UHGV virus genome: UHGV-1558314
Length of the DNA: 64,000 nucleotides
Direction: 5' to 3' (one strand)
DNA from: a virus
The position numbers and the translations under genes were made by a program. Of the stretch, positions 4,301-49,727 are shown one piece after another (the stretch's first letter is position 1; every line of letters begins with the position of its first letter). The notes below the pieces were generated by a model, which had not been told where the DNA came from, did no database searches, and worked only from the letters and a program-made list of their open reading frames with translations.

Positions 4301-7300
4301 TTAGAACAGAGCAATGATGTTGTCAACAAACATAAAGCACTTTTGCAGCAATTCAGCTGTCGGCGTCATCTCATATGCTTTGCCATCATACATAAATCGC
4401 ACAGTGACAATGGGTGACACTTCGTCTTTGAATGCAAGCACAGGAACATCTACACCTGCAGTCAATTGCACTTCAACATCCTTGTCAGCTGCTACATCTT
4501 TAGCAATCACTGCAATATCTTGACAACGACCAGCAGCTACTGCATATCTAACGTTTGTCAATGTAGCAGACATGTCAGCAAGAGCTTGCATGATTTGCTG
4601 TTGAGTAAATTGCTCAACCGACTTCTTTGCAGCCTTGACAGCTTCGATATCTTGCGTATTTGCAAGAATCAATGCTACCACTGCAGGGTCAGAAGTAGTC
4701 CACCAACGACCATCAATTGCAAGCCACAGTCGATTGCCATTGACGTCAATTGCATATGCATATTGAGTGTTTGGCGCCAATGTGACTTTTCGAGTGTTCT
4801 TTAAGAACTCTGCTGCATCAGGTGCTGCAACAATGTTCTTGACAAATGACGGCAGCATTTCAGCTTCAAATGTTTGTGTAGCTTCAAAGACACCGCCACG
4901 TGCATCGTCATCAATTCTGCCTGCAAAGCGTTTGCAGATTTGAATGATTGTAGCCATGCCTACTGTTGGAACGACTTGACGTTTCATTGCAGGCATTTGC
5001 AGAGGCATTGTATCTTGCGCAATGTACAATGATGTCGCATCAACAGTGTCAAGTACTCGTGCAATGTCTGCAGTATCAACAATTACAAACCAGTCGCCAT
5101 CATGGCAGACAATGAGTTGCTTGCTGTCATTTGCATATGTCAGCAATACTGCAATGTCATTTTTGATTGAGATTGCAGGAATCCATGCTTGTTGCAGAGG
5201 TAAGTCAAGATTTGGTGTGCCGCATGGATAAAGCGCAGATGGCTGCATAATTGAGCGGCAATCAAAACCTATTGAACTTACAAGCTGCAGAACTTCGCCA
5301 CGAATGCAAGCATTACTTTGATTCTGTGTCATGTCATATGCAAGCCAACTGCAAATTGCTTTGATTGATGACACTGGAAATGCTACGCCAATTGTGCTGT
5401 ATGCAATCTTGCCGTCTGCTGACAATGACTCATCAACTGCAATGCCAGCATCATTGAACAATGACATATCAATTGAACAATGGAATTCGCCACCAGGCAT
5501 TGGACCTGCAGCAATGCCATAGCCATGACCAAGTGACAGCCATTCTTTCATTGCATCTGAATTGTATGACGAGAACTTGTACAGCACATATGACTTATGC
5601 GGGTCACTAACTGACTTGCGAATCTCCATCTTGGCGCCTGCTTTCTTTGCAATTGCTTTAATGTTATCGGCATGCTTTTTTGCCTCAGACTTGTCAAATT
5701 TGCCTTCATCAAGTTGAGCAATCTTGCCAAGCGCATAAGCAGTCCATGCAATTAACAATTGATTCAGTGCACCAACTTCTGACCACGACTTTTCTGCAAA
5801 CCATGAGCCAAGACCAGATTTGTCAAGGGTTTCTTTGCGTTCAGCTTTTGTTGTGCTGTCCCACCACTTGCCAGTCGCAGGCAATACAATGTCTTTGATT
5901 TGCTCCTTACGAAGCTCATTGACACCAATTTTGCCCTCATGAACATGCGCATTTGCATGATATGCTCTAAGAGCAGCCAACGCAGCATCATATGAGTCAT
6001 AGTCTTGCGGCCAGAATTCCCCATTCTTGCCAATGATGCCCCATACACCCTTTGACTTTTCTTGGATGACAGAGTCTTTGTCACCGGCAGCTTCATTGAC
6101 AAATGCCGTGTTAAGATATGCAATGACATGCTGAAGCTCTTTGTCGTCTGCAGACTCATTGACGTTCTTAGCGTAATCACCAAGAATTGATTCAACTTTG
6201 CCACGCAAATTGCTTGGCATATCATCAAGGTCAAGATTGCCGTACTTCGTAACTTCTGGTTGAGACAATCCAAGCAATTTCAACACCTTATCGCGGTACT
6301 TATTTGCAAGCTTCTTCCAAATCCAGCGGAATGTTACAGCGCCAATCAAGAATTTGATGAGGCCCTCATCAAGTACATGTTGTTCACGCAAATATGCTGT
6401 AATGCATGAACGTTGACCATCAGTCAAGTCAACCCACATTTTATCAAGCAATATTGAATCTGGGTTGCTTGCAATGCCAGCGCCGCTGCGGTTGTACACA
6501 TTCATTCTGTCAATTGCTGGTGTTGCGTCATTGTCCCACCAAGCTTGTGCATATGAACATCCAGCAGGATTTGAGATTGCTTCATTAATGTACATGACAT
6601 TGAAGATTTCGCAAAGACGCTTGCGACATTCAGGTGACATAACTTGCCATTGTGTTGCAATTTTGTCTTCTGACCACTGCAACAGCATGTCTGCAAATTC
6701 TTTACCTGCGCATTGCTCAACTGCACCATGTTTCGAACGCCAATAATTGTCAGGCTCAATTTGTGCAATTGCATGAACAAATGAAGTCAGATTGTATGAC
6801 GCAGATTCGCAAATGCAATGCTGTTCAATGTAGCTACGAACAGCAAGTGCAGTGTCTTCCGGCAAGTTGCTATATGGTGACTCATAGATGTTTGCTTGCT
6901 GATTGAGCATATGTGGAGCAACTTCTGCAATGATTTGTTTGCGAACATTCAATGGCCATGCATTCCATGAAGATTCTACAGATTCATCAAGATGCATGCC
7001 AATTGCATCCATAACTGCATCAGCATCTTTGCCCGACAGTTCGTCAAACAATTTGTCTACTACTGCATAATCATATCGCAAATTTGGCTGAGCCTTTGCA
7101 AGAGCGTCCATCATTGCTTTGCGTTCTTGTTTTGACGCATTATTCCATGTGCCAGCATACAATTCTGCTGTCGCGCTTTCACAGACAATATCTGCAGCAG
7201 CATATGCTTGCTTCATAATGTCCATGAAGATTGACTTCATTTTTGGATGCATCACATGATACTTTTCATTGTAGATGTCAAGTACGCCATAAACATCTTT

Positions 7301-7507
7301 CAATGGTCGAATGCTTTCTGATGAGCCGAATGATGGCTTCAAAATTGAATTGCATACACGTTCAACGGTGCCACGCATAAACTTGACATCACTTCGCTTG
7401 TCACTGATAGACATAAATGCATCAATGACAGACTTGATGTTGTCATCTGCAGCTTCATTGACAAAGCCTACTGGTCGACCGCCAAACTTGTTTGTTTGTG
7501 TTGTCAT
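4301..7507 (-). CDS. Large hypothetical protein (1068 aa) with FVNE motifs; possibly a protease-processed virion protein
   Basis: Long ORF, ATG start MTTQTNKF; contains RPVGFVNEAADD near N-terminus and TAFVNEAAGD internally; no catalytic motif recognised. Confidence 0.8.
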   Translation of the reverse strand: MTTQTNKFGGRPVGFVNEAADDNIKSVIDAFMSISDKRSDVKFMRGTVERVCNSILKPSFGSSESIRPLKDVYGVLDIYNEKYHVMHPKMKSIFMDIMKQAYAAADIVCESATAELYAGTWNNASKQERKAMMDALAKAQPNLRYDYAVVDKLFDELSGKDADAVMDAIGMHLDESVESSWNAWPLNVRKQIIAEVAPHMLNQQANIYESPYSNLPEDTALAVRSYIEQHCICESASYNLTSFVHAIAQIEPDNYWRSKHGAVEQCAGKEFADMLLQWSEDKIATQWQVMSPECRKRLCEIFNVMYINEAISNPAGCSYAQAWWDNDATPAIDRMNVYNRSGAGIASNPDSILLDKMWVDLTDGQRSCITAYLREQHVLDEGLIKFLIGAVTFRWIWKKLANKYRDKVLKLLGLSQPEVTKYGNLDLDDMPSNLRGKVESILGDYAKNVNESADDKELQHVIAYLNTAFVNEAAGDKDSVIQEKSKGVWGIIGKNGEFWPQDYDSYDAALAALRAYHANAHVHEGKIGVNELRKEQIKDIVLPATGKWWDSTTKAERKETLDKSGLGSWFAEKSWSEVGALNQLLIAWTAYALGKIAQLDEGKFDKSEAKKHADNIKAIAKKAGAKMEIRKSVSDPHKSYVLYKFSSYNSDAMKEWLSLGHGYGIAAGPMPGGEFHCSIDMSLFNDAGIAVDESLSADGKIAYSTIGVAFPVSSIKAICSWLAYDMTQNQSNACIRGEVLQLVSSIGFDCRSIMQPSALYPCGTPNLDLPLQQAWIPAISIKNDIAVLLTYANDSKQLIVCHDGDWFVIVDTADIARVLDTVDATSLYIAQDTMPLQMPAMKRQVVPTVGMATIIQICKRFAGRIDDDARGGVFEATQTFEAEMLPSFVKNIVAAPDAAEFLKNTRKVTLAPNTQYAYAIDVNGNRLWLAIDGRWWTTSDPAVVALILANTQDIEAVKAAKKSVEQFTQQQIMQALADMSATLTNVRYAVAAGRCQDIAVIAKDVAADKDVEVQLTAGVDVPVLAFKDEVSPIVTVRFMYDGKAYEMTPTAELLQKCFMFVDNIIALF

Positions 7508-7567
7508 ATATCAACTATTTTGATTGTCAATCAATTGATTTGTTTGTTATATGTATGCAACAATGCA

Positions 7568-10969: not shown

Positions 10970-11128
10970 TATTTTACTTGAACAGCTTCTGCAAGAATGA
11001 AACTGCAATCTACTACATCATCTTCTTCGCATTTAGAATTGAAGTACTGCTGAGCATCCTTGGCATTGTCAAATGCTTCATACCATCGATGGTCAATGTA
11101 GTCTACTAATACAAGATAGTGTTTCATA
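10970..11128 (-). CDS. Hypothetical small protein (52 aa)
   Basis: Hand-translated MKHYLVLVDYIDHRWYEAFDNAKDAQQYFNSKCEEDDVVDAVFILAEAVQVK; below ORF-track size cutoff. Confidence 0.3.
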
Positions 11129-11149
11129 GTTAGTTGCAGTTAGTTGTAG

Positions 11150-11605
11150 TTATTGTGCTTTGCCAGTATAATAAGTGATTGCGTCAATGTAAGGCTGTTC
11201 TTTAGACATTAGCCAATCAATGCCAAATACTGTATCTTGGCGAAATCTTCGTTGTGCAATCATTTGAACTTCTATAGGCATATCTACGTCCTTGCCAAAT
11301 CTTATTGTATTTGCAAGTTCTGTGATTGCATATCTGAGAATTTTATCAGTGCTCATTGTTAATGTACTTTCCGGCAATTGCCAGTAGCGTTCTTGGAATG
11401 CTCGATTTGCTGAGTAAGTCCAAAGTTCAAGTCTTGCATTTCTGCAATCATATGAAACAATCAGACTTAATCCTTTTGTCCAGCAATGTGCTATCTTAAT
11501 GATAGGGTTGTTGTCATTGATTGATGACATTGCTTGCAGTTTTTCGAAATCTTTAACATATCTGTTATCATTCGAAAGCTGTTCCATTATTTCACCGTAA
11601 GTCAT
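11150..11605 (-). CDS. Hypothetical protein (151 aa), late-promoter class
   Basis: ORF track; AACCTCTACTACA immediately 5' of ATG. Confidence 0.6.
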   Translation of the reverse strand: MTYGEIMEQLSNDNRYVKDFEKLQAMSSINDNNPIIKIAHCWTKGLSLIVSYDCRNARLELWTYSANRAFQERYWQLPESTLTMSTDKILRYAITELANTIRFGKDVDMPIEVQMIAQRRFRQDTVFGIDWLMSKEQPYIDAITYYTGKAQ

Positions 11606-11780
11606 TGTAGTAGAGGTTAAAATATATTAATATATAATAATTATACTACAAAGTTGCCAGATTTGCACCAGAATGTATAACAAGTTCACACAAAATTACA
11701 AACAAAAACAAGCAGACTGCAATTACAGCCTGCTTGCACCAAAACAGAAAAAGATGATAACTTAACCCAAAAACCTAACT

Positions 11781-13322
11781 TTATCTACTTACAGAATCTC
11801 GCATTGAAATCATAACTTGCTCTTGAATTGACATAGGTATGATGTTGAAGTCTGACACTTCAGCAACGTCATCAACATCAAGTGCTCTTAATGTGTCTGT
11901 GTTACAGCAAGTCACTATGATTGACTTGCGAACATACTCATCAGCAACATTCCACAACAGCTGACAAATTGCTCGATTGTCAAGACAAATTTCATTGACT
12001 GTGCGGACAAGGCTGTACCATGCAGTCACATTATTGCGCTTCAGAGTTTCAAGCATATATCGTGCAAGCCCAAAACCTGCTACATATGACCCAGTCTGCT
12101 TATTGAATGACTCAATTGCGTATGCATCAAACAATGCTTCTGTCATCAAGGGCATTGCAGCGGTCATTCGGTAGTATCGATAGTCAACACATACAATCAA
12201 CCAGTTAACATATGAATTGACTGCGTATGCATGCGCTTTGAACCCAAGGTCATTCAAGATTTTGCAGATGGCATTGTAAGTCGATTCATCAGCATTGCCA
12301 AAGTTTGCAAGCAGCTTAACTTTAAGAATGTCTTCACCAATTGCATTTCTTGTAGCAGTGAATGATGGTATGCATGCAAAGCTTCTTTTGCAGATGTCTG
12401 TGATAAGTTGCTGTGCATCATTCACAAGCTGTCTTGCAGCCTCAGCACGCTTTTCAGACTGTGCTTGATATTTTGGCCGCAACTGTGATGAGCCAGTTGC
12501 AGCACCATATCGCATAGCAGCTTGCCAGTCCTTGAGATTATTTTGCAATTCACGAACATAGTCTGCAGCGACCATTGCAGATGGAGTTCTTTGCTGTTCG
12601 ATGAGTTTGTTGATGTTTGCAAGCACATCTGATGCAAACATATCTTTTGGTTTGACTTTCGCAATTTCAGCAAGCACTGCAGGTACACGAGCAATGCCAC
12701 GAGGCTCATTTGAAACTACTACTGCATAATCTACAAGTGCCTCACATACAAGCTGTTCATCGACAAAGTACTCAGGATTCTGCACAGCGTCTTCAACAAC
12801 TGCAATCAATGTTGCTATACGATTGCCGTCAGGCTTATTGCCAAACAGCTCAATGTACAACATATCTGCTTGTTGGTCTGTCATTGAACCTGCAATGTCA
12901 ATTGACTTTGCCAGCTTATTAAGCAGTTCAGCTTGCTTACTCGACAATCTGACTTTGTATGATGACTCTACAGCTTCTTTGACTGCTTTGAGTTTTCTAT
13001 CAATGTCAAGACTACTTTCATTGACATTCATACCAACAATGCCAGCAGCGTCAGTGTTAAATTGCTCAACAGTTTCTGCTGCAGTTATTGGCGATGACAC
13101 AATAGATTGTTTTGCATTTGCTGCAAGCTGATTGAGTCGAGTGACTGCTTCAGAATCTTGCGCAACTGCAAGATATCTTACGCACAGCTCATCAATCTGT
13201 GAAAGATAACTTTGGGTCATGTTTATCGAAAAATTGTTGTTTCTTGACGAATAGCTGTTGGATGCAATTTGCAGAAACACTTCGACATTTCTAAGTTCCG
13301 ATGATGACAACAATGTTTCCAT
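11781..13322 (-). CDS. Hypothetical protein (513 aa) with one VNE site; possible virion component
   Basis: ORF track; GMNVNESSLD motif. Confidence 0.7.
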   Translation of the reverse strand: METLLSSSELRNVEVFLQIASNSYSSRNNNFSINMTQSYLSQIDELCVRYLAVAQDSEAVTRLNQLAANAKQSIVSSPITAAETVEQFNTDAAGIVGMNVNESSLDIDRKLKAVKEAVESSYKVRLSSKQAELLNKLAKSIDIAGSMTDQQADMLYIELFGNKPDGNRIATLIAVVEDAVQNPEYFVDEQLVCEALVDYAVVVSNEPRGIARVPAVLAEIAKVKPKDMFASDVLANINKLIEQQRTPSAMVAADYVRELQNNLKDWQAAMRYGAATGSSQLRPKYQAQSEKRAEAARQLVNDAQQLITDICKRSFACIPSFTATRNAIGEDILKVKLLANFGNADESTYNAICKILNDLGFKAHAYAVNSYVNWLIVCVDYRYYRMTAAMPLMTEALFDAYAIESFNKQTGSYVAGFGLARYMLETLKRNNVTAWYSLVRTVNEICLDNRAICQLLWNVADEYVRKSIIVTCCNTDTLRALDVDDVAEVSDFNIIPMSIQEQVMISMRDSVSR

Positions 13323-17494: not shown

Positions 17495-18367
17495 TCAAGC
17501 CTGACTACTTTTGTTGATTACGAGATACTTGTATCGTTCTTTGATTGTGATGTTCTTTGATTTTGCTGCCTCGAGTTCTTTACGTTCCTTGGAGGAATAG
17601 TTGAACTTGATGTAGTCGGAGAACAATTCGGGCTTATCTGCTACTTCATTGTTCTTGACTTCTTTTACAAGAGTTTGCTGAAACTCATTGATTGTAGTGA
17701 AACCAAGGAATGACTGGAACTTGTTAAGCGGAAACAACTTATCTGTGTTGTCCTCGAATGTCGGGAATTCGTCGGAATACGTAATTTCGATTTGGTCTAC
17801 GAAATATCTAAGTTTTTCCCAAGGTTCCTTGCCAATGAGGAGAATGTTCTGATGGTCAAGTTTTTCCTCGAACATTTCCAGGAGGCATTCGTATGATTTT
17901 ACGAGACGAACTCCAGGATATGTAATTGATGCAATTGAACGAGGTTTGTGAGTTGTCTTGACTTCTTTATTGTACGTTTCCTCATCAATGCAATAGATGT
18001 ATCGCTTGACCTTGTCGTATTCTTTCGGAAGATAGTTGTTGTCAAGGAATTGCTTGTCAACTACAATGAAACTGAAAGGATAGAGTTCATTGAATCGTTG
18101 ACGAAGCTGTTCTGTTGCAAGGAAGAAATGCGAGCCATCTTTTGCTGCAAATTCCATATTTGAATTGCATCCTGCATATGCAATGTATCTGTTTCGCTTC
18201 CATTTAAGGAATCGACTTACCAGATTCTTTTCGAAGATATCCTTGTATTTGAAGTTAGTGTCCCAGTACTCCTTAACAATTCCATCTTGCATTTTTCTTG
18301 ACAATTTTGAATTGTCTACCGGCCTATCAGTAAAAACTGAAGGTTTGTTTGCATTGTATAATCCCAT
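17495..18367 (-). CDS. Hypothetical Lys-rich protein (290 aa), late-promoter class
   Basis: ATG at 18365-18367 (MGLYNANKPSVF) preceded by AACCTCTACTACA; ORF-track N-terminal extension crosses the promoter. Confidence 0.7.
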   Translation of the reverse strand: MGLYNANKPSVFTDRPVDNSKLSRKMQDGIVKEYWDTNFKYKDIFEKNLVSRFLKWKRNRYIAYAGCNSNMEFAAKDGSHFFLATEQLRQRFNELYPFSFIVVDKQFLDNNYLPKEYDKVKRYIYCIDEETYNKEVKTTHKPRSIASITYPGVRLVKSYECLLEMFEEKLDHQNILLIGKEPWEKLRYFVDQIEITYSDEFPTFEDNTDKLFPLNKFQSFLGFTTINEFQQTLVKEVKNNEVADKPELFSDYIKFNYSSKERKELEAAKSKNITIKERYKYLVINKSSQA

Positions 18368-18461
18368 TGTAGTAGAGGTTTTTGTTAAATTTATTATATA
18401 TGTATATATTACAACGACAGTGCAAAATTTGCACTGTCGTAGCATAAAAGTTTACACATTT

Positions 18462-18806
18462 TTACAAATATGAGTACAGTTTGTTCATAACTCGTTCAAT
18501 TGCAAATTCAACACCATATTGCAACAACTGTTCAGTGCTAAATGTCTTTGCTGCATGTGCATGCGCAACAATATGCTTTGTCTGTGCATATAATATCCAA
18601 GTATCAGTTGGCCTGTCATAAGTTACTGTCAGTCTACATGTTTGCAACACAAACTCTTGACTAAAGTATTCTCTTCGCCAAAACTCTGGTTCTGCAATAT
18701 GCAAATCAAGCCAAGCAAACTCAAACAGAATTTGTTTAAGTTGACGTTGATGCTTACGTTCAGCACGATATGAGTTGCTGAATAGCCATTTAATGATGTT
18801 CATCAT
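18462..18806 (-). CDS. Hypothetical protein (about 114 aa)
   Basis: ATGA start/stop overlap with upstream SIS gene. Confidence 0.5.
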   Translation of the reverse strand: MMNIIKWLFSNSYRAERKHQRQLKQILFEFAWLDLHIAEPEFWRREYFSQEFVLQTCRLTVTYDRPTDTWILYAQTKHIVAHAHAAKTFSTEQLLQYGVEFAIERVMNKLYSYL

Positions 18807-33457: not shown

Positions 33458-33560
33458 GTTCGTTATCGTATTTGTAAATTGTGAAATGTTGCTTTGTTTG
33501 ATTATAACTTGATATATGTATGTATATGATGACATCAAACATGTTGTTGACCAAAATCAA

Positions 33561-36600: not shown

Positions 36601-37562
36601 TCATAAGGCTTAGCATCTTCATTTGTGAAGTCAATGCCAAGCAAAGACATTGCTTGTTTTTTGTTTTCTTCTGAGAGTGCATCGAATGCAGTTGCAAGAC
36701 CGACATCGGTATAGTCACACCCAACTTCGTCAAGCAATGCTTCGACTTTCTGGATGTTTTCTACACCAACTTCATTAGCATCAGCATTGTTGTATGCCTC
36801 AATAAAACGTGATTGGTTTGTCATGGTAGTGAAATCTTCTATTGATTCGTTTATGAGTTGCTGTTTGAGTGCATCCAATGATGCTGAGCCAATCAATGCA
36901 TCAGGGAATAGCTTCTGCAACATGCCTGTACGTGCAAGCTCAATCAATTGGAGCATCAATGAGTTTGGCGAGTCTTCGTCATCTACAGATTCACAAATGA
37001 GAGTGTCTTTTGATTCATTAACTGAACCGACAAGATTGAACTCTGCTTCAGGAAATGACGGCTCGCATACTAAATCGTATGTAATCAACTTTAGTAGAGT
37101 CGTTGCACCTGTAGTAGGATTAACTATACCAAGAGCTCGACTTGATACAAACAATGGTGAGCCTGCAGCCACAACTGCCCATGCAATACGACCTGCTGGC
37201 GTATCAAGAATAGTAATCCAGCCTTCAAATCGTTGCTTATCAGGATTCCATTCAATACTGTCAATGCGGTGTGATACATTCCCATACTTCACAGTACGTC
37301 GCTTAACATGCTCAAGCTCGCCAAATAGACGCTTAGCTTTGATTGCTGATTGCAATGTTTGTACTTGCGCAAAATAATTTTCGAAATTGTATGTTCGACC
37401 ATTACGATTACGCTCGCCAATAGTTGCATATGTACCGAACAATCTACCAAGCGCGCCACTTGGCACATGTTCATCTACAGCTTCAGCAACAAATTGACAA
37501 TCCTGGCGGCTTTCTATAATAAGCTGCGCAGGCTTGCCTTTGTATGTTATTGGTTTTGCCAT
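33612..37562 (-). CDS. Prohead protease (T4 gp21 / S77-like) fused to a long acidic scaffold/internal-protein-like region (1316 aa)
   Basis: N-terminal NGRTYNFENY ... LFGELEHVKRR ... SHRIDSIEW ... ILDTPAGRIAWAVVAAGSPLFVSSRALG ... YDLVCEPSFP; downstream GSVNE, LINESIED, MSMVNEG, KFINEA, KIVNES, TFVNES, GFVNEN. Confidence 0.8.
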   Translation of the reverse strand: MAKPITYKGKPAQLIIESRQDCQFVAEAVDEHVPSGALGRLFGTYATIGERNRNGRTYNFENYFAQVQTLQSAIKAKRLFGELEHVKRRTVKYGNVSHRIDSIEWNPDKQRFEGWITILDTPAGRIAWAVVAAGSPLFVSSRALGIVNPTTGATTLLKLITYDLVCEPSFPEAEFNLVGSVNESKDTLICESVDDEDSPNSLMLQLIELARTGMLQKLFPDALIGSASLDALKQQLINESIEDFTTMTNQSRFIEAYNNADANEVGVENIQKVEALLDEVGCDYTDVGLATAFDALSEENKKQAMSLLGIDFTNEDAKPYDISKLDDAALTEFAKALEFEVEDKSIDDIKAAIEAELDSNLDKHNDIAKQYGIVECDEALNFDYLDAAWGALTDEVKTEIVEAAKVDDKDAVIAIKSFKDIPAEAQQPIIDAMLDKNLIEKELVNIDESADNKWDELSDDERKVILDKLSLSEFYRPNAKWQLIDKDHKLKIEAEFAADEAKHATLGEAWDSFTDDQRQSILSKHIGLPYNAKTKWAGIDIAHHAMLEKDIDAIDEAKAQDNEGKSFVSIWGTMSMLNRATALKAVQPDKSDEDCFQHAHDNEDALGKELVDALKKHLNIDEAQTVEVYDKNGDKITAELTGFNEDKVSFKYNGKESVAIKEGDKYMLYDGRYETVKALDEASDPAADWWYNASVADRNQLIEQIGKDKIGVEDAANATWEMFDNESRNAIAAAIRAQSTDESIEAPYDMSNGINKGDKIVVGAVKNVAGTTKIEVEVWPAGKPEQKFTLRFDDKKDPEYLALVDDCDESVDAWNAADVAARKTWLLSKNYLDADSEYYASQPYDSLPVDVQNFVKEFFEAPVDEAAVGDNIKIYDADGNEFEAVVNTIDNNEAGTRLTVTYGESTSGIVAEVDGKWTLVPASEPGKIVNESIVADKLYATYSDTDKSIIDKFYQDDIVKTCIKNIDPDKSTMDDKVAAAYDELIKAQKSAEAVDELEANKSLLIAYIAAQLQDEMVNEGKLSYKPKTAKFINEATEDNKPTPADVEQIIDGLVDASTITRAQADELVDAVSDAADLDKVENKAQLAEKIAETAEELGLDVDVEECMSMVNEGVDDNIREAVLKDKSYDDFDFRTVERDGSTISVVISKDDQLTGIEVAGDLTDANQKMLSDMLRTYLGAQATDECLTNIKHEIAALRRQTKQLATRYDAAGVAVLDENLQPIDHTPLYLKHMPTAYKYIYESLTPEQKSLIATQAAVRTFVNESDVAAFYRSRNWAAIKSYSTKQPVGFVNENVDGSGKSSLTPEQQRLVDLIRG

Positions 37563-39111: not shown

Positions 39112-40908
39112 TTAGCTTTGTGATGTTTTGGCAGGTTCATCATCAATAGGCTCATCATCAACTGACTCATCATCACCTGTATCAATGCCAGAAGCCGCAG
39201 CAAGTGAAACATCATTAGCGACGCCTTGCTGTTCAAGTTGTTGTTGAGCTTGTTTTGTTTGAATTGCGACAAGTCTTGCAGCTTCCATTGCAAGCTTAAG
39301 ATTCTCTTGAAGTTCGATATCAAGCTGTTCAGCATTAGCTTGCATGTCTTCTTTGCTTAAGCCAAGGTACTTGTTGATAAGCCAATTGCTCGAGAAGAAC
39401 GGGCGTTCAGTGTCAGACATGTTAAGTGAACGAACAAGTGAACTGCGAATATCTTCGATTGTATGTATACGCTTCTGAAGCAATGTGAGCTCCATTTGCG
39501 TTTGGAAGTGATTGTATCGATTGAACTTAAGTTTTAGTGCATTCAACACATCATTGTCACCAATGTAGTTATTGTTTTTGATGCACATCAAAACATACAC
39601 AGGCTTCAATATGATTGCAACGCCAAATCTACGCATCAAAGCTGAAATGAAGATAGCAAAGCGCCGCTCATCACGTTGAATTGACTCTTCAGAAACATTC
39701 CACATGCCACCGCCGTCATCGAATCTGCTTAGAGGCAGCTTTGACAAGCGTTGCAAGTTATTGCGGAAATATGTGACTGCTGAAGTGTCAGATAAGTCAG
39801 GCATGCCTGTGCCAATTGTTTGAATGTTGGGTTTGCCTGCATTAGTATCAGCCAGCCAAAATTCGCTATTGAAGGGCACAGATGCTTCACCGTTAACTTG
39901 GAGTTCGCCGGTTTGATTGTCGAATTCAATTTTTTCGTGGTACTTATTCATTGCTTTACGCAATGTTTCCTGTGCAGCAGCTTTCAGTTTACCGCCAGTA
40001 GGAATTGTGATAAGTGAACGAAAACGAGCAGCTGTCGTAGCATATGCAATGCGGCTTCGCTCCAAAATTCTAAGTAAGTTAAACGCACGAACAAGACGCT
40101 CAAAGTATGACATAGACCCAACCATGTCATCATTCCACTGCAAATATGCTACTTGCGAATCAAGCAAGTTGATTTTTTCTGAATTATTAGACACAAATGC
40201 TGGTGCTTTAACATCAAACATTGTATGTGTCTTAAACATATCTTGTTGAGACTTATCATACTGCCAGAAGAACATGTCGCCCTTCTTCATAGGTGTCAAT
40301 GCAAACGCGTTCAACTTTCTGATGCCAACAACATCAGTTGGCTCATCTGCATTATCAAACACAATCTCATAGCCAAGTCTACCTCGTACAAGATATTCAC
40401 GCAACAATGCTTTGACATCTTGTTTACGAGGTTCTGAGTTCAACCCATTGAATGCATACATCAAATAGACTTGCTTGAATGCATCCATAAAGTCATCTTT
40501 GATTGTCTGCTTTGTTGCGTCATCTATCTCAAGTTTATCGATGTCGCAAAAATCAGGCTCGCAAAAGAAATTGCTATCAGAATTGAACACGATGCACTCA
40601 TCAATCATGCGGTCAAGAATGTCATCGAGTTCCGGTTCTGCACTTAAGATGTCATATTTTTTGGCTCGAAGATAACTTGTCAATCCAAAAAGATTCTTTT
40701 TAGGTGACTCTTTCTGATTGAACACGTCATCAGTAGACAACACAACAACTTCTTGGTCATTGATGTTATGCTCACCTGTATATGCTGCTTTCTCCAAATC
40801 TGCATCAGACCCAGACTTGTGCACGTTCAATTGCTGCAATGGGCTGTCTTTTGGAATTGAGCGCAATGCATCAGTCCCCAGATATGTTCGTTTGGTCTTT
40901 TTAGCCAT
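39112..40908 (-). CDS. Hypothetical protein (598 aa) with acidic C-terminus; possible portal protein
   Basis: Size and acidic C-terminal tail DDESVDDEPIDDEP; no Walker A, so not terminase; function tentative. Confidence 0.65.
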   Translation of the reverse strand: MAKKTKRTYLGTDALRSIPKDSPLQQLNVHKSGSDADLEKAAYTGEHNINDQEVVVLSTDDVFNQKESPKKNLFGLTSYLRAKKYDILSAEPELDDILDRMIDECIVFNSDSNFFCEPDFCDIDKLEIDDATKQTIKDDFMDAFKQVYLMYAFNGLNSEPRKQDVKALLREYLVRGRLGYEIVFDNADEPTDVVGIRKLNAFALTPMKKGDMFFWQYDKSQQDMFKTHTMFDVKAPAFVSNNSEKINLLDSQVAYLQWNDDMVGSMSYFERLVRAFNLLRILERSRIAYATTAARFRSLITIPTGGKLKAAAQETLRKAMNKYHEKIEFDNQTGELQVNGEASVPFNSEFWLADTNAGKPNIQTIGTGMPDLSDTSAVTYFRNNLQRLSKLPLSRFDDGGGMWNVSEESIQRDERRFAIFISALMRRFGVAIILKPVYVLMCIKNNNYIGDNDVLNALKLKFNRYNHFQTQMELTLLQKRIHTIEDIRSSLVRSLNMSDTERPFFSSNWLINKYLGLSKEDMQANAEQLDIELQENLKLAMEAARLVAIQTKQAQQQLEQQGVANDVSLAAASGIDTGDDESVDDEPIDDEPAKTSQS

Positions 40909-46480: not shown

Positions 46481-47736
46481 TAACTGTCATACGACCAGTG
46501 ACCACAGTCATACACTGGCACAAATCCAGTGTCAAGCATTTCTTGCTCATTAAAGTCATCATCAAGCAAGTGTTCACCCGATTTTGTATTAACCCAGTGC
46601 TTCTTAATTGTGCATTCATCAACCGCAAAGGGATTAAGTACATTGTCAGTACAGTCAATGAACGCATCATTCAAATGCGCTTCAATGATATGAAGCACAA
46701 TTTCTTGGTCGTGCCAATCAAATATCATGAGTGGCGTGTAGCCACATGCAATTGCAAGTTGTTGCTTCCACCAATGATAGTTTGGCTATTTTGCTTCTGC
46801 AGCATTTCGTTTAAAGCCATACACGCTATTATGAGTATGCGTCGGGTTAACGTCAATTAGCAGATTGCCATAATACAGGTCATATGACGTTATGCCAACA
46901 CCATGTTCAAACTCAAAATGCACACCAAGATGTTCTTCAATGTATGATTGCCACCATCTGTTTGGCGCAGATATGATTTGCCCATTTGCTTGCATACATT
47001 TATTTGTCATGCAAAACCATGGCACACCGTAACGTTCCATACAGGTTTTTGAAATTGCAGCAAGCCATTCATCTTTGTCTCTATGCGGCCATGCATAACC
47101 ATAACGCAGACGGCATGTTTGTTGAGCTTTAGCAACGATTGGCGCTAAACGTTCACCGTATATTTCACGTTTAGTTGCGATGGCTTTGCGTGGATTAGTC
47201 CATCCAGCATCACCCCATCGCTCAAGCTTCGTTTGCTGAGATTTTTCAACAATCAGTTCAAGATTCTCACCATATTTTTGACGACGAGTTTGCATTGCTG
47301 CAACATAATCTGTAATGCATCTATGGCCATACAAACGTTCTTTTGTCGCACATTGAACATCTACTGGACCTTGTGGATAGCCATAGCGTTCCATATTCGT
47401 TTGACGAATATGTGCTTTATCGCCATATGAACTGCCGTAGCGTGCAACTTTAGTGGCAATTGTTTGCTTGATGTTGCCTGCTTTAGAACCATAACGAGCT
47501 TCTTTAGTTGCTACGCATTTTTGTTTGACTTCTGCTCTGTTCCAATTATGCTCAACGCCATGTTTACGAAGATGGCCAATTTTCATGTTGTACACGTTTT
47601 TGATATGACCATGAGATGTCTTACGTGGTGCATATCGTACAAATGGTGTTTCTGCAAGCAACTTATCTCGTTCAGCTTCAAGCTCTTTAATTCGAGCTTC
47701 AAGAGCTTCACCAGTCAAAGGCTCTACATGTTTCAT
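46480..47736 (-). pseudogene. Homing-endonuclease-like paralog 4 interrupted by a single in-frame TAG (46786-46788)
   Basis: ORFs 46786..47736 and 46480..46728 are in the same frame; intervening codons read *PNYHWWKQQLAIACGYTPLMIFDW and align with intact paralogs. Confidence 0.7.
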
Positions 47737-48360: not shown

Positions 48361-48390
48361 AAAAAGCTCAGCCAATTACGGCTGAGCTTT
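48357..48390 (-). terminator. Rho-independent terminator
   Basis: aaaaa agctcagcc aattac ggctgagcttt. Confidence 0.6.
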
Positions 48391-48437
48391 CATTGAGATG
48401 CAACTTTTACGTTGACAGCAAACCTAACTATGTTCGG

Positions 48438-49727
48438 TTATTCTTTTGGCAGAAGTTCAGCAATGCGTGACTGCAATTGCTCTTTCTGCTTCAAATAGCT
48501 GTCAAGAATTTGCTGATGAGCTGCATAGCCCTCTGATGTTGGGTCCATACTCTGCATTGTGACTTGAACTGCAGCAATGTCTGATTCGACATTGTTGAGC
48601 ACTGTCTGATATGCGTCGACTTGTGCAGATGCACGAATTGCAGCTTTCATTGCAGTGTCATAATGTTCGCGCCACATTGACTTGATGCATTCGATTTCTG
48701 GTGTGCTTACAGAAATTGACTGCAATGCTGCAATGAGTGCAACAATGCCGCCGTATACTGTAATGACGCCAGACTGAGTGTCAAGCATGTTGAAGTGATT
48801 GCCATCAACTGCGTATACAATGATAGGCGCAGATTGCAGCTTGACTGAATTGTCGAGAACTGCAAGCTTTGTGAACTGCTGCGCTACTGTAATGACTGCA
48901 TTGCAAATTGCCTCTGCAGTCTCAAATTCGCCTGCAACTTGCATGCTAACTTGATTGAGTTGCATATAAGTCTTGACTTTCTCAGCGAATTCAAGTGCAG
49001 TCATAACTTGCGAATCAAGCTCAACTGCATCTTGGCCAACAATGCGAACATGGCCGACAATTGTGTCAGCAAAGAATGCTTCAGTCTTTGGACAATACTG
49101 AACAAGAGACATCGCATCCATCAATGCAACAGATTCTGCAGATGGCTCAGATGCTGTAGCATACAGCAAATTACCATCAGATACAGTGAACCACTTGCCA
49201 ACTACAGGCAGACCCATGATGTCGCCTTCAATAATTGCAAGCACATGCTGGCAATCACCTGTAGCAATGATGTGCTCAGGATTTGCTGCATAGTAGATGT
49301 CTTTTGCCTGCTTAATGAGCGACTTCACCTCAGGGTACATGTCATAATTGTCAAGCACGCCATCAACTGCAATTGCTCGAATGATTGGCTCATCAGTTGA
49401 TGCAACATCTACTGCATCTTCGATTGCTGACGCAGCCCTTTGCATATTTGCAGAGCCATCACTCATCAAATCTTCCATGACAAGTGACGCCTTGAAACCA
49501 AAGCCATCTGCGCCAATTGCTGCTTTCTGTGATTTTGCAAATGCGCGTACAGCAGCATCTTTGCTATTTGCAGCGCTTTCCAAAATCATTGCAGCTTTTC
49601 GAAGAGTCAGACCAGACTTTTTGATTTGTGCAAGTGACTCATTGACAAAGTTTGCACCGCCAAAAGTCAATGCTTTGATGCCTTTGATACCTTGAACAAA
49701 TGCATCAACGTTTACAGTATGTTTCAT
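48438..49727 (-). CDS. Hypothetical protein (429 aa) with N-terminal FVNE site; candidate processed virion protein
   Basis: GGANFVNESLAQ about 27 aa from N-terminus. Confidence 0.75.
   Translation of the reverse strand: MKHTVNVDAFVQGIKGIKALTFGGANFVNESLAQIKKSGLTLRKAAMILESAANSKDAAVRAFAKSQKAAIGADGFGFKASLVMEDLMSDGSANMQRAASAIEDAVDVASTDEPIIRAIAVDGVLDNYDMYPEVKSLIKQAKDIYYAANPEHIIATGDCQHVLAIIEGDIMGLPVVGKWFTVSDGNLLYATASEPSAESVALMDAMSLVQYCPKTEAFFADTIVGHVRIVGQDAVELDSQVMTALEFAEKVKTYMQLNQVSMQVAGEFETAEAICNAVITVAQQFTKLAVLDNSVKLQSAPIIVYAVDGNHFNMLDTQSGVITVYGGIVALIAALQSISVSTPEIECIKSMWREHYDTAMKAAIRASAQVDAYQTVLNNVESDIAAVQVTMQSMDPTSEGYAAHQQILDSYLKQKEQLQSRIAELLPKE

What the first reader, a model, noticed from the sequence alone, without database searches (positions are those of the whole stretch)
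4301..49727. Recurrent [F/Y/M]-V/M-N-E motif in a subset of large proteins: putative prohead-protease cleavage code
FVNE-type motifs occur about 20 times and are concentrated in a few proteins: 4301..7507 (2), 11781..13322 (1), 21270..23222 (4), the putative capsid protein (YMNE near N-terminus), 33612..37562 (7) and 48438..49727 (1, near N-terminus). The pattern fits the [L/I/V]-x-E rule of T4-type prohead proteases and marks candidate processed head and internal proteins.
Basis: partly seen in the sequence, partly recalled or inferred. Interest (0 to 1): 0.6.

Follow-up and report, generated by a model that had tools for sequence, protein, structure and literature searches.

The report
Phage head-protease cleavage code (V-N-E)
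A short peptide signal, hydrophobic-Asn/Asp-Glu followed by a small residue, marks where this uncultured gut phage's own head-maturation protease most likely cuts its capsid protein, itself and three very large multi-module head proteins; it is a lineage-specific version of the cutting rule known from phage T4.

Summary
VNE occurs 22 times against 4 expected, and [FYM][VM]NE 13 times against 0.6 (0 of 2000 shuffles). The excess exists only when a small residue follows: [VILM]NE[SAGN] 20 vs 3.6, [VILM]NE[other] 12 vs 10.4. It is specific to the reading frame, so it acts at protein level.

The 1316-aa protein with the most sites is itself the T4 gp21-type prohead protease. It has an invariant His85/Ser140/Asp163 triad, and its first site (E183) comes directly after the catalytic domain. 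Sites keep their positions in orthologues at 25-42% identity (capsid protein, protease, DUF5856 protein, 429-aa protein). Related cultured phages (MA9V-2, PAU, pT24) are enriched for the same x-N-E code.

- Asp can replace Asn ([VILM]DE[SAGN] 17 vs 4.8).
- Three proteins (1316, 1068 and 650 aa) look like strings of small modules joined by site-bearing linkers.
- Modules are gained, lost and swapped exactly at the sites.

Verdict: a new variant of a known kind, of moderate interest.

The parts
33612..37562 (-). 1316-aa prohead protease polyprotein: N-terminal T4 gp21-type serine protease followed by a roughly 1100-aa extension of small modules
   Evidence: phrog_207 head maturation protease 7e-34. 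Pfam Peptidase_S77 scores 26.9 bits against a cut-off of 27. tblastn of the N-terminus hits 639 phage records. 80 homologues all carry 7-22 [VILMFA]-N-E tripeptides.
37014..37481 (-). Predicted mature protease domain, about aa 28-183, with catalytic His85, Ser140 and Asp163
   Evidence: H85, S140 and D163 are invariant in alignment A3. The A3 profile hits PDB 5JBL (T4 gp21) at E 5.4e-10, with the His and Ser positions aligned. Candidate N-terminal self-cut sites are LIIE17|S and FVAE27|A.
37011..37025 (-). Site SVNE183|S, the release-type self-cleavage site directly after the protease domain
   Evidence: E183 is invariant in 10 diverse proteases. N182, E183 and S184 are invariant in 29 homologues.
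36843..36857 (-). Site LINE239|S
   Evidence: Relatives have LITE|S, LVTE|A or LVCE|A here: P3 and P1 are kept while P2 varies.
36216..36230 (-). Site NIDE448|S
   Evidence: D447 and E448 are invariant in 29 homologues. It sits at the start of a low-confidence linker in the model.
35892..35906 (-). Site AIDE556|A, in the variable middle region
   Evidence: Matches the motif and lies in a pLDDT<50 segment. Conservation is low because the region is a mosaic of cassettes.
35694..35708 (-). Site NIDE622|A, the upstream edge of a 55-aa cassette
   Evidence: A cassette at aa 626-680, present in 14 of 23 close relatives, lies between this site and ALDE681|A.
35517..35531 (-). Site ALDE681|A, the downstream edge of the same cassette
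   Evidence: E681 is invariant in 29 homologues. It is the only predicted site not in a low-pLDDT segment.
34965..34979 (-). Site PVDE865|A
   Evidence: Matches the motif. It lies in a short 12-residue low-confidence linker, model residues 691-702.
34767..34781 (-). Site IVNE931|S
   Evidence: E931 and S932 are invariant in 29 homologues. P2 is N, T, D or L in relatives.
34503..34517 (-). Site MVNE1019|G
   Evidence: E1019 is invariant; relatives have VNE, ICE or VSE here.
34458..34472 (-). Site FINE1034|A
   Evidence: E1034 is invariant; relatives have FVNE|A/S or HIDE|A.
34224..34238 (-). Site MVNE1112|G
   Evidence: V1110, N1111 and E1112 are invariant in 29 homologues.
33906..33920 (-). 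Site VLDE1218|N
   Evidence: D1217 and E1218 are conserved in 97% of homologues.
33768..33782 (-). Site FVNE1264|S
   Evidence: F1261, N1263 and E1264 are invariant in 29 homologues.
33681..33695 (-). Site FVNE1293|N, the last site, 23 aa from the C-terminus (maturation-type site before a conserved tail)
   Evidence: E1293 is invariant. A last hydrophobic-N-E site 20-28 aa before the C-terminus recurs in most other lineages, including MA9V-2, pT24, LR756500 and the P0072 and P0080 groups.
25967..27682 (-). Major capsid protein (T4 gp23-like), with two predicted cuts in its N-terminal propeptide
   Evidence: Pfam Gp23 4e-11. 36-37% identical to the capsid proteins of MA9V-2 and PAU.
27617..27631 (-). 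Capsid protein site VLDE21|S
   Evidence: E21 is invariant in five phages: VLDE|S, VIDE|S, FINE|A, KLNE|S and LITE|S.
27539..27553 (-). Capsid protein site YMNE47|S; the predicted mature N-terminus is Ser48
   Evidence: The same position reads YINE|G in the 35% relative L006, FLNE|S in MA9V-2 and NILE|S in pT24.
21270..23222 (-). 650-aa protein of several modules, one of them a DUF5856 domain; a candidate head cargo polyprotein (true start probably Met12)
   Evidence: Pfam DUF5856 and phrog_858 match aa 262-374. It has six [VIL][ND]E[SAGN] sites, plus FIME27|S, IVTE389|S and NIDE504|S, which read VNE in relative P0086.
22923..22937 (-). Site AVNE99|A
   Evidence: A96, V97, N98, E99 and A100 are invariant in alignment A1. 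The L006 orthologue has MLNE|S at the matching place.
22656..22670 (-). Site FVNE188|A, the upstream edge of a 63-aa cassette
   Evidence: Relatives P0084 and P0085 lack exactly the piece between this site and NLDE251|A, and rejoin as FVNE|AA.DD.
22467..22481 (-). Site NLDE251|A, the downstream edge of that cassette and the start of the DUF5856 module
21708..21722 (-). Site NIDE504|S
   Evidence: It reads VNE|S in the 51%-identical relative P0086; E504 and S505 are invariant.
21510..21524 (-). Site FVNE570|S
   Evidence: F567, V568 and E570 are invariant; P0086 has FVAE|S.
21459..21473 (-). Site YVNE587|N
   Evidence: Y584, N586, E587 and N588 are invariant. The L006 orthologue has FINE|N.
4301..7507 (-). 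1068-aa protein of several modules with no known family; a candidate head cargo polyprotein with an 18-aa N-terminal propeptide
   Evidence: It has eight [VIL][ND]E[SAG] sites. Homologues of individual modules in other phages begin right after a site. One module is shared with a relative's protease polyprotein.
7451..7465 (-). Site FVNE18|A (the N-terminal propeptide is MTTQTNKFGGRPVGFVNE)
   Evidence: Homologue P0088 has FVNE|S at aa 21-24.
6980..6994 (-). Site HLDE175|S
   Evidence: Matches the motif and is followed by a W-helix motif.
6578..6592 (-). Site YINE309|A
   Evidence: Matches the motif.
6362..6376 (-). Site VLDE381|G, the start of a module at about aa 373-470
   Evidence: Homologous modules carry HLDE|G (P0092, aa 25), HIDE|G (P0094) and NVDE|S/G (P0090, P0091).
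6152..6166 (-). Site NVNE451|S
   Evidence: Homologues P0090 and P0091 have SVNE|S at the matching place.
6089..6103 (-). Site FVNE472|A
   Evidence: Homologues P0090 and P0091 have FVNE|S and YVNE|N.
5702..5716 (-). Site QLDE601|G, the upstream edge of a roughly 90-aa module shared with relatives' protease polyproteins
   Evidence: BLASTP of aa 520-697 against P0019 aa 668-854 gives E 9e-25. In P0019 the module is bounded by SIDE|G and VVNE|S.
5426..5440 (-). Site AVDE693|S, the downstream edge of that module and the start of the C-terminal module (aa 694-1068)
   Evidence: Homologues of the C-terminal module start right after HVNE|S (P0089, aa 34-37), YINE|A (P0095, aa 6-9) or AIDE|A (P0088).
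48438..49727 (-). 429-aa protein of unknown function with a 30-aa N-terminal propeptide; it lies next to a head-fibre gene
   Evidence: Its orthologues are L006 737..2035 and MA9V-2 MA9V2_197. Its neighbour 49735..51345 has a Head_fiber_dimeric domain, 8.5e-22.
49635..49649 (-). Site FVNE30|S
   Evidence: F27, V28, N29 and E30 are invariant in three orthologues that are 25-42% identical overall.
11781..13322 (-). 513-aa protein of unknown function; a weak candidate substrate
   Evidence: It has a single site and matches no family. No phage homologue was found, and the only other relative is 96% identical, so conservation could not be tested.
13014..13028 (-). Site NVNE102|S (weakly supported)
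   Evidence: Matches the motif only.

Best explanation
**What it is.** The motif is the substrate code of the phage's own T4 gp21-type prohead serine protease. The code is a P3 hydrophobic residue (V > I, L, M), P2 Asn or Asp (less often T or C), P1 Glu, with the cut before a small residue (S, A, G or N). An aromatic residue is often at P4 and acidic residues at P3'/P4'.

**How it most likely works.**
1. The protease is made as the N-terminal 183 residues of a 1316-aa precursor and co-assembles inside the prohead. This step is inferred from T4 and herpesvirus precedent.
2. Once active, it cuts itself free at E183, and probably also at E17 or E27.
3. It cuts the rest of its own precursor at 13 or more linker sites.
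4. It removes the last 23 residues at E1293. This resembles the maturation site of herpesvirus protease-scaffold proteins.
5. It trims 47 residues from the capsid protein (sites E21 and E47).
6. It removes 16-30-residue N-terminal propeptides from the 1068-aa, 650-aa and 429-aa proteins, and cuts the first two into small modules.
7. Some fragments presumably leave the head, acting as scaffold. Others presumably stay as internal proteins.

**Shown here:** the motif statistics, the identity of the protease and its triad, the positional conservation of sites, their location in linkers, and indels and module exchange at the sites.

**Inferred:** that cutting actually happens, and what becomes of the fragments.
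For: 1. **Enrichment with the right dependencies.** [VILM]NE[SAGN] occurs 20 times vs 3.6 expected and [VILM]DE[SAGN] 17 vs 4.8. There is no excess when P1' is not small or when P1 is D or Q. The excess is specific to the reading frame and uses varied codons.
2. **Protease identity.** phrog_207 7e-34; 639 phage gp21-type tblastn hits; profile hit to PDB 5JBL at E 5e-10; invariant H85, S140 and D163, with E183 also invariant.
3. **Conserved sites in the polyprotein.** Among 29 homologues with 36% mean column identity, the P1 Glu is at least 90% conserved at 10 of 14 predicted sites, against 9 of 89 other Glu residues (Fisher p 2.7e-6). Where P2 changes, P3 and P1 stay.
4. **Conserved sites in other proteins.** Capsid protein E21 is invariant in five phages, and E47 has equivalents in three. 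FVNE30 of the 429-aa protein is invariant. Sites in the DUF5856 protein are conserved.
5. **Independent de novo enrichment in relatives.**
   - MA9V-2: INE 19 vs 4.6 and NES 18 vs 4.2; 17 sites in its 1207-aa protease protein; small proteins start MKTFTYFINE|A.
   - PAU: NEA 12 vs 1.5; five small proteins start MK..LYE.KLNE|A/S, and two of these are annotated as internal capsid proteins.
   - pT24 protease-scaffold protein: about 10 x-N-E sites.
   - L006: FVN is the top tripeptide.
6. **Sites lie in linkers.** 13 of 14 sites fall in pLDDT<50 segments, which make up 45% of the AlphaFold2 model (p 2.5e-4).
7. **Module edges coincide with sites**.
8. **Specificity of N-terminal sites.** Two hydrophobic residues, any residue, Glu, then a small residue, within the first 60 aa, occurs only in five flagged proteins, plus one match at the C-terminal end of a 52-aa ORF.
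9. **Precedent.** T4 gp21 cuts after L/I-X-E, and its N-terminus carries LIE-9, a sequence that fits its own cleavage logo. PhiKZ cuts after S/A-X-E. SPN3US cuts after A-X-E, prefers Ser at P1' and cuts its own C-terminus (PMC9026906, PMC10052503, PMC5694885).
Against: - No mature N-terminus or virion proteome exists for this phage or, as far as I could find, for MA9V, PAU or pT24.
- The Pfam S77 score is just under the curated cut-off (26.9 vs 27).
- Several middle-region sites (E556, E622, E865) are poorly conserved because that region is a mosaic of cassettes.
- A few matching sequences occur in proteins that should never meet the protease, such as two in the tail sheath and one in a DNA-polymerase neighbour. 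So the motif alone does not prove a cut.
- A more distant relative (LR756500) shows only a weak Asn signal.
- Whether the 1068-, 650-, 429- and 513-aa proteins are in the head at all is inferred only from the motif pattern.
Confidence: 0.85

Rival explanations
1. The motif is mainly a docking or targeting signal that takes proteins into the prohead core by binding scaffold or capsid protein. Only a minority of the sites, for example those in the capsid protein and the protease, are actually cut.
For: In T4 the capsid targeting sequence and the cleavage site overlap (PMC5694885; PMC9026906). N-terminal copies of the motif sit where a targeting peptide would. SPN3US shows incomplete cleavage at some sites.
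Against: Most sites are internal and lie in linkers between modules. The strict need for Glu followed by a small residue is a protease signature rather than a binding-helix signature. Cassette indels end exactly at the Glu.
Confidence: 0.08
2. The motif is a conserved feature of a repeated, paralogous protein module, that is, shared ancestry of duplicated segments, with no role in proteolysis.
For: The three large proteins also share a second recurring 'W-helix' motif: 24 hits vs 2.0 in shuffles, and 12 vs 0.84 in L006. Modules are exchanged between them.
Against: The motif also occurs in unrelated contexts: the capsid propeptide, directly after the protease fold, and at the N-terminus of the 429-aa protein. 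Self-BLAST of the 1316-aa protein finds no internal repeats, and the flanks of the sites are dissimilar. Relatives that lack the W-helix motif (MA9V-2, PAU, pT24) still have the x-N-E code.
Confidence: 0.04
3. The cuts are made by a different enzyme, either the retropepsin-like aspartyl protease encoded at 20708..21265 beside the DUF5856 gene or a host protease.
For: A second phage protease gene exists and is conserved in the same position in the 35% relative L006 (Asp_protease_2 29.4 bits against a cut-off of 24.3; DTG motif).
Against: It has a lipoprotein-type signal peptide (…LTMC|NE), so it should be exported, away from prohead assembly. No homologue of it was found in the MA9V-2 or PAU regions examined, although both use the same code. 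To my knowledge retropepsins do not favour Glu at P1, whereas every characterised gp21-type protease cuts after Glu (PMC9026906).
Confidence: 0.02
4. The pattern results from chance, amino-acid composition, or a DNA-level signal such as a binding or restriction-related site GTCAATGA.
For: GTC AAT GAA is the commonest codon triplet at the sites.
Against: 0 of 2000 shuffles reach the observed counts. 22 of 25 coding-strand DNA matches are in frame, and the other strand has 14. Codons vary. The excess depends on the next amino acid.
Confidence: 0.01

Closest known systems
Phage T4 gp21 prohead protease (MEROPS S77) and its L/I-X-E cleavage rule, with capsid targeting sequences on internal proteins
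   Same: - The protease fold family and catalytic triad are the same.
- The cut is after Glu, with a hydrophobic residue at P3 and a small residue at P1'.
- The capsid protein loses an N-terminal propeptide.
- The protease has candidate self-cut sites at both ends; LIIE17|S here parallels T4 LIE-9 (PMC9026906).
- Relatives PAU and MA9V-2 have small proteins whose 10-14-residue N-terminal leaders end in the motif, like T4 internal proteins.
   Different: - P2 is restricted to Asn or Asp here (37 of the 49 [VILM][NDTC]E[SAGN] sites; N is enriched 3.9-fold and D 2.7-fold). In T4, X is any residue.
- The preferred P3 residue is Val rather than Leu or Ile.
- The protease is fused to a roughly 1100-aa extension instead of being a 212-aa protein with separate scaffold and internal-protein genes.
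- In the window no separate scaffold gene and no small internal-protein gene with a leader was found.
PhiKZ gp175, 201phi2-1 gp268 and SPN3US gp245 prohead proteases (MEROPS S80) of giant phages
   Same: - Distant homologues of this protease match both the S77 and S80 Pfam models.
- The cut is after Glu, and SPN3US prefers Ser at P1'.
- The protease cuts its own C-terminus.
- Long regions are cut at several sites, and many head proteins are processed (PMC10052503, PMC9026906).
   Different: Those enzymes need a small residue (S, A or G) at P3. Here P3 is V, I, L or M at all 37 sites counted. Their C-terminal propeptide is short (64 residues in SPN3US) rather than about 1100.
Herpesvirus assemblin-scaffold precursor (HSV-1 UL26; from my own knowledge)
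   Same: - An N-terminal serine protease of the same clan is fused to the scaffold.
- A release site lies directly after the protease domain (E183 here).
- A maturation site lies about 25 residues from the C-terminus (E1293, 23 residues from the end here). This recurs across most lineages of the clade at 20-28 residues and is followed by a conserved tail.
   Different: - Herpes enzymes cut Ala|Ser, not Glu|Ser, and have two sites rather than 14 or more.
- The extension here contains exchangeable folded modules.
- That the tail binds the capsid protein is untested.

Membership tests
T4 gp21-type prohead serine protease (Pfam PF03420 Peptidase_S77; clan with S80 and herpes assemblin) | Significant sequence or profile similarity to the family | tested here: met
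   phrog_207 7e-34; 639 phage tblastn hits; profile A3 against PDB 5JBL at E 5.4e-10. The single-sequence Pfam S77 score is borderline (26.9 bits against a cut-off of 27).
T4 gp21-type prohead serine protease (Pfam PF03420 Peptidase_S77; clan with S80 and herpes assemblin) | Catalytic His-Ser-Asp triad | tested here: met
   H85, S140 and D163 are invariant in 10 diverse members. The His and Ser columns align with the mutated catalytic positions of 5JBL.
T4 gp21-type prohead serine protease (Pfam PF03420 Peptidase_S77; clan with S80 and herpes assemblin) | Gene lies in the head module with the portal and capsid genes | tested here: met
   The portal is at 39112..40908 (phrog_213 5e-55) and the capsid gene at 25967..27682. 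The order is syntenic with MA9V-2 and PAU.
T4 gp21-type prohead serine protease (Pfam PF03420 Peptidase_S77; clan with S80 and herpes assemblin) | Cuts substrates after Glu at a short motif | not testable with these tools
   The only evidence is indirect: enrichment, conservation and linker location of hydrophobic-[N/D]-E|[SAGN].
T4 L/I-X-E cleavage rule | P3 aliphatic, P1 Glu, any residue at P2 | tested here: inconclusive
   P3 and P1 fit: 37 of 37 sites have V, I, L or M at P3. P2 is not free: N and D are enriched 3.9- and 2.7-fold, and [VILM][not N/D/T/C]E[SAGN] shows no excess (46 vs 53.6). So this is a narrower rule.
PhiKZ / SPN3US S/A/G-X-E cleavage rule (S80) | Small residue (S, A or G) at P3 | tested here: not met
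   P3 is V (20), L (8), I (8) or M (1) at the sites counted.
T4-type capsid targeting sequence on internal proteins | Short N-terminal leader that ends in the protease motif | tested here: met
   The leaders are 18 aa (4301..7507), 16-27 aa (21270..23222) and 30 aa (48438..49727). Relatives have MK..FINE|A and MK..LYE.KLNE|A leaders.
T4-type capsid targeting sequence on internal proteins | Carried by small, separately encoded, hypervariable proteins | tested here: not met
   In the window the carriers are 429-1316-aa proteins. Variability lies in cassettes inside them.
Protease-scaffold fusion (herpes UL26-like architecture) | Release site after the protease, and a maturation site about 25 aa from the C-terminus with a conserved tail | tested here: met
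   E183 is invariant. E1293 is invariant and 23 aa from the end. Tail residues T1304, E1306, Q1307, Q1308, L1310, D1312, I1314 and G1316 are invariant. The same layout is seen in MA9V-2, pT24, LR756500 and other groups.
Protease-scaffold fusion (herpes UL26-like architecture) | The extension acts as the assembly scaffold and its tail binds the capsid protein | not testable with these tools
   No separate scaffold gene was recognised in the window, which is only suggestive.

The most novel reading that the evidence does not exclude
In this gut-phage lineage, head cargo is encoded as polyproteins. Three large ORFs (1316, 1068 and 650 aa) are strings of small folded modules joined by flexible linkers that carry the protease site. 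The sites also serve as the joints at which modules are inserted, deleted and moved between carrier proteins, including into the protease's own precursor. The result would be a rapidly changing set of small packaged, possibly injected, proteins. Functionally this would parallel the hypervariable T4 internal proteins that counter host defences, but delivered by a polyprotein strategy not described for tailed phages, as far as I could find.
Probability: 0.35. Interest if true: 0.72.

Novelty: new variant of a known kind. Interest (0 to 1): 0.55.

Why it matters
- **It makes head maturation in an uncultured phage group testable.** These are roughly 175-180 kb T4-like phages from gut metagenomes, related to phages of Bacteroidota hosts. 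The code gives a residue-level prediction of the mature capsid N-terminus (Ser48), the mature protease (about aa 28-183) and some 30 cut sites. These can be checked in the cultured relatives MA9V-1/2, PAU and pT24, or in gut metaproteomes.
- **It extends the known range of gp21-family specificities.** T4 uses L/I-X-E, PhiKZ S/A-X-E and SPN3US A-X-E. This lineage reads P2 as well.
- **The specificity bears on host defence.** Bacterial CBASS systems have been reported to sense prohead proteases through cleavable loops that discriminate between phage families (PMC12991175). Knowing a lineage's code would tell which host sensor loops could detect it.
- **The polyprotein layout, if confirmed, offers two things.** It suggests a way to load foreign proteins into capsids between two sites. 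It also gives a route for fast turnover of packaged proteins.

Tried and rejected
- **Identifying the phage.** Near-identity DNA search of 20 kb against 50,697 phage records found no match, so the phage is not a deposited isolate.
- **Protease domain against PDB.** Single-sequence phmmer found nothing. A profile was needed.
- **Homologues of the 1068-aa protein.** The word-indexed search found only a 98% identical copy. The full HMMER scan gave module-level homologues only.
- **Homologues of the 513-aa protein.** tblastn against phages found none, and the viral-contig scan found only a 96% copy. Its single site could therefore not be tested.
- **Fold search.** Foldseek of the polyprotein model against viral structures gave no hit with E ≤ 0.001. 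This is expected for a multi-domain model with low pTM.
- **DUF5856 module.** AlphaFold2 with 7 near-identical sequences gave pLDDT 44, too poor for a fold search. phmmer against PDB found nothing. What this module does remains unknown.
- **Source contig.** An exact look-up of the window's own protease protein was not on record. A 95% relative showed a gut-metagenome origin.
- **More distant relative.** In the 462-kb LR756500 phage the Asn code is weak. The code is therefore specific to this lineage and not general to all homologues.
- **Literature.** Searches for a prior description of this code, or of long protease polyproteins in these phages, found nothing. The MA9V papers do not discuss cleavage.
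- **Rejected explanations.** A DNA-level motif, internal sequence repeats, and the neighbouring aspartyl protease as the processing enzyme.

Full report
**What the window is.** Almost all genes lie on the minus strand. The window has no near-identical DNA in 50,697 deposited phage genomes.

Its capsid protein (25967..27682) is T4 gp23-like (Pfam Gp23 4e-11). By tblastn it is 33-37% identical to those of Chryseobacterium phages MA9V-1/2, 'Sphingomonas' phage PAU and the Tenacibaculum phages, with weaker hits (26-32%) to Lak-type huge phages.

Gene order matches MA9V-2 and PAU across the portal (39112..40908), DNA end protector, head completion protein, protease, capsid protein and split DNA polymerase.

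Exact or near-exact copies of its proteins occur on contigs of 175-181 kb. Close relatives come from gut metagenomes.

**Checking the observation.** I used a non-overlapping ORF set of 20,366 residues.
- The strict motif [FYM][VM]NE occurs 13 times.
- Within-protein shuffles give 3.95 VNE against 22 observed, 0.59 strict motifs against 13, and 0.16 FVNE against 8. None of 2000 shuffles reaches these counts.
- The five other orderings of V, N and E occur 2-5 times each.

The excess has the dependencies expected of a protease site:

| pattern | observed | expected |
|---|---|---|
| [VILM]NE[SAGN] | 20 | 3.6 |
| [VILM]NE followed by any other residue | 12 | 10.4 |
| same with Asp at P1 | 6 | 4.8 |
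| same with Gln at P1 | 3 | 3.0 |

At the DNA level, GTNAAYGAR occurs 25 times on the coding strand, 22 of them in frame. Codons at the sites vary. Selection therefore acts on the protein.

- Asp at P2 is a second common form: [VILM]DE[SAGN] occurs 17 times against 4.8 expected (z 5.7). Cys is marginal. Other P2 residues show no excess (46 vs 53.6).
- Of 37 [VILM][ND]E[SAGN] sites, 32 lie in the six named proteins, which hold 22% of residues. Of those 32, 28 lie in just three: 33612..37562 (14), 4301..7507 (8) and 21270..23222 (6).
- Outside the six proteins the motif occurs five times, which is about chance level.
- The site logo is P4 F/N/Y, P3 V>L,I, P2 N/D, P1 E, P1' S/A>G,N, with P3' and P4' rich in D and E.

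**The protein with the most sites is the protease.**
- The first roughly 190 residues of the 1316-aa product of 33612..37562 match head maturation proteases (phrog_207 7e-34). They also match 639 phage records by tblastn, including T4-like cyanophages annotated as gp21.
- An alignment of ten diverse members has invariant His85, Ser140 and Asp163. Its profile finds the T4 gp21 crystal structure 5JBL (E 5.4e-10), with the His and Ser columns on the positions mutated in that construct.
- The only other invariant acidic residue near the end of the domain is Glu183, the P1 of the first site, SVNE183|S.
- This is the arrangement known for gp21-family enzymes, which cut off their own C-terminal part (PMC5694885, PMC9026906).
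- Near the N-terminus, LIIE17|S and FVAE27|A parallel the LIE-9 sequence noted in T4 gp21 (PMC9026906).
- More distant homologues match both the S77 (T4) and S80 (PhiKZ) Pfam models.

**Conservation of sites.** Eighty homologues of the 1316-aa protein were found, from 98% down to about 35% identity. All carry 7-22 [VILMFA]-N-E tripeptides.
- In eight divergent members the sites at E183, E1034, E1112, E1264 and E1293 align. At E239, E931 and E1019 the Asn is replaced by T, C, D or L while P3 and Glu persist. Two look-alikes with the wrong P1' (DANE|V, GFNE|D) are not conserved.
- Over 29 homologues (mean column identity 36%), the P1 Glu is at least 90% conserved at 10 of 14 predicted sites, against 9 of 89 other Glu residues (Fisher p 2.7e-6). 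Several of those nine look like further sites (ICE191|S, IYE1242|S).
- The capsid protein has Glu21 invariant in five phages (VLDE|S, VIDE|S, FINE|A, KLNE|S, LITE|S). YMNE47|S is matched by YINE|G, FLNE|S and NILE|S.
- The 429-aa protein keeps F27-V28-N29-E30 unchanged in orthologues that are 25-42% identical overall.
- The DUF5856 protein keeps AVNE99|A, FVNE188, FV.E570|S and Y.NE587|N. Its IVTE389|S and NIDE504|S read VVNE|S and VNE|S in a 51% relative.

**Independent support from relatives.** I ranked tripeptides by excess in each relative, without using the window's motif.
- **MA9V-2:** INE (19 vs 4.6) and NES (18 vs 4.2) rank at the top.
  - Its 1207-aa 'prohead core protein serine protease' has 17 hydrophobic-N-E sites, starting at residue 176.
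  - Its capsid protein has FINE|A and FLNE|S.
  - Two small proteins begin MKNFFSFINE|A and MKTFTYFINE|A.
- **PAU:** NEA (12 vs 1.5) and LNE (15 vs 3.5) are enriched.
  - Five small proteins start MK[TS]..[KQN]LYE.KLNE|[AS]. Two of them were annotated by the depositors as internal capsid proteins.
  - The capsid protein has KLNE|S.
  - These leaders look like T4 capsid targeting sequences (PMC5694885).
- **pT24:** the 527-aa protease-scaffold protein has about ten x-N-E sites.
- **L006, a 35%-identical gut relative:** FVN is the top tripeptide, and the matching capsid, 429-aa and DUF5856 sites are present.
- **LR756500, a 462-kb metagenomic phage:** only a weak Asn signal, although RVNE|A follows its protease domain. 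The P2 preference is therefore a lineage trait.
- I found no paper that describes this code. The MA9V papers do not mention cleavage.

**Architecture of the substrates.** An AlphaFold2 model of residues 170-1316 (29-sequence alignment, mean pLDDT 55) shows small helical or beta modules with pLDDT 75-90, separated by low-confidence stretches.
- 13 of 14 predicted sites fall in the pLDDT<50 segments, which are 45% of residues (p 2.5e-4). Within the internal region the figure is 8 of 9 (p 8e-4). Several short linkers of 12-24 residues contain a site.
- Cutting at the predicted sites would give a 156-residue protease and 14 further pieces of 15-209 residues.

Among 23 close relatives the first 315 and last 500 residues are 97-100% identical and gap-free. 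Residues 315-820 are a mosaic of present or absent cassettes. The cassette edges fall at ..xxE| sites: FANE|G…LDE|S, CDE|A…INE|A, IDE|A…LDE|A and CDE|S…VSE|S.

In the DUF5856 protein, two relatives lack exactly the 63 residues between FVNE188| and LDE251|.

In the 1068-aa protein, homologues of the C-terminal module from other phages begin right after HVNE|S, YINE|A or AIDE|A.

A roughly 90-residue module of the 1068-aa protein (QLDE601|G…AVDE693|S) is found, 40% identical over a 187-column alignment (E 9e-25), inside the protease polyprotein of a close relative. There it is bounded by SIDE|G and VVNE|S. Modules therefore move between carrier proteins, and the sites are the joints.

**C-terminal layout.** The last site lies 23 residues from the end and is followed by an almost invariant tail.
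- A last hydrophobic-N-E site 20-28 residues from the C-terminus recurs in MA9V-2, pT24, LR756500 and other groups. It is usually preceded by an aromatic-x-x-R-N/D-W/L element.
- Together with the site after the protease domain, this mirrors the release and maturation sites of the herpesvirus protease-scaffold precursor (my own knowledge).
- No separate scaffold gene was recognised in the window, so the extension may serve as the scaffold. This is inference.

**Rivals.**
- A DNA motif, composition or chance is excluded.
- Repeat ancestry does not explain sites in unrelated contexts, and self-BLAST finds no internal repeats.
- A second protease gene exists at 20708..21265. It is retropepsin-like, with a DTG motif, and is conserved beside the DUF5856 gene in L006. 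It carries a lipoprotein-type signal peptide, and no homologue was found in the MA9V-2 and PAU regions examined.
- A role in targeting as well as cutting cannot be separated from cleavage by sequence. In T4 the two overlap.

**Comparison with known systems.**
- The enzyme belongs to the gp21 family, and the tested membership features are met.
- The code works like T4's L/I-X-E (PMC9026906) but is narrower at P2.
- It is not the PhiKZ/SPN3US S/A/G-X-E rule, because P3 is aliphatic at all 37 sites.
- What differs most from T4, PhiKZ and SPN3US is how the substrates are packaged: a protease fused to about 1100 residues of cleavable modules, plus two further multi-module proteins, rather than many small genes.

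**Verdict.**
My confidence that this is the prohead protease's cleavage code is 0.85.
- It is a new variant of a known kind.
- Interest is moderate (0.55). The mechanism itself is familiar. The lineage-specific P2 reading, the residue-level predictions for an uncultured gut phage group and its cultured relatives, and the exchangeable-module polyproteins are worth an experiment.

Noticed in passing
window 20708..21265 (-); L006 20160..20672: A retropepsin-like aspartyl protease (Asp_protease_2 29.4 bits against a cut-off of 24.3; LLLDTGAS motif) with a lipoprotein-type signal peptide. It lies directly downstream of the DUF5856 polyprotein gene and is conserved at the same place in a 35%-identical relative. 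An exported second protease in a phage; its function is unknown.
   Followed up: partly
window 33612..37562, 4301..7507 and 21270..23222 (-); L006 10001..14038: A second recurring motif, W-x2-3-[LMF]-[ST]-x2-3-[RK]-x2-h-h, for example WDELSDDERKVIL, WDSFTDDQRQSIL and WNNASKQERKAMM. It often lies 5-12 residues after a cleavage site. It has 24 hits vs 2.0 in shuffles, and 17 of the 24 lie in the three polyproteins. L006 has 12 vs 0.84. It is at chance level in MA9V-2, PAU, pT24 and LR756500. The regex was written after seeing the examples. It may mark a small repeated helical unit or a docking helix.
   Followed up: partly
window 34900..36600 (aa about 315-820 of 33612..37562): A hypervariable middle region. 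In 23 relatives that are otherwise 97-100% identical, the protein length ranges from 1316 to 1575 aa through cassette gain and loss.
   Followed up: yes
window 49735..51345 (-): A 536-aa protein with Head_fiber_dimeric (PF25641, 8.5e-22) and PEGA domains. This is a probable head fibre, like the head-fibre appendages reported for Tenacibaculum jumbo phages (from my own knowledge). It lies next to the predicted substrate 48438..49727.
   Followed up: no
window 51370..52662 and 56184..57725 (-), with 52802..56175 between them: The family B DNA polymerase is split into two ORFs, as in MA9V-2. They are separated by about 3.5 kb that includes a homing-endonuclease-like gene (54976..56175). Further homing-endonuclease-like genes lie at 23475..24581 and 46786..47736.
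   Followed up: no
window 24599..25702, 46786..47736 and 54976..56175 (-): The tripeptide RYG is strongly over-represented (17 vs 1.6). This is explained by a repeated T-K-x-x-RYG unit with 3-5 copies in each of these three proteins; two match a homing-endonuclease family and 24599..25702 matches no family.
   Followed up: partly
window 29807..30556 (-): A 249-aa protein with a hydrophobic N-terminal half and a long (PE)n repeat (PEP occurs 30 times). It sits between the tail sheath and capsid genes. Its function is unknown.
   Followed up: no
window 30620..33538 (-): The tail sheath gene (phrog_34521 3e-113) lies between the protease and capsid genes. In L006 and MA9V-2 the protease and capsid genes are nearly adjacent, so the head module here is interrupted.
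   Followed up: no
window 22056..22469 (-) (aa 252-389 of 21270..23222): The DUF5856 / phrog_858 ('starvation-inducible transcriptional regulator') module would be released as a 138-residue piece between two sites. It is predicted to be helical, but the model is of low confidence and there was no match in PDB, so its fold and role are unresolved.
   Followed up: partly
L003 (PAU) 6031..6696, 11051..11796 and 17994..18735: Five PAU proteins share a near-identical 14-residue leader, MK[TS]..[KQN]LYE.KLNE|[AS]. MKT is the top tripeptide in that region (11 vs 1.0). This looks like a family of T4-style internal proteins and could be tested directly in a cultured phage.
   Followed up: partly
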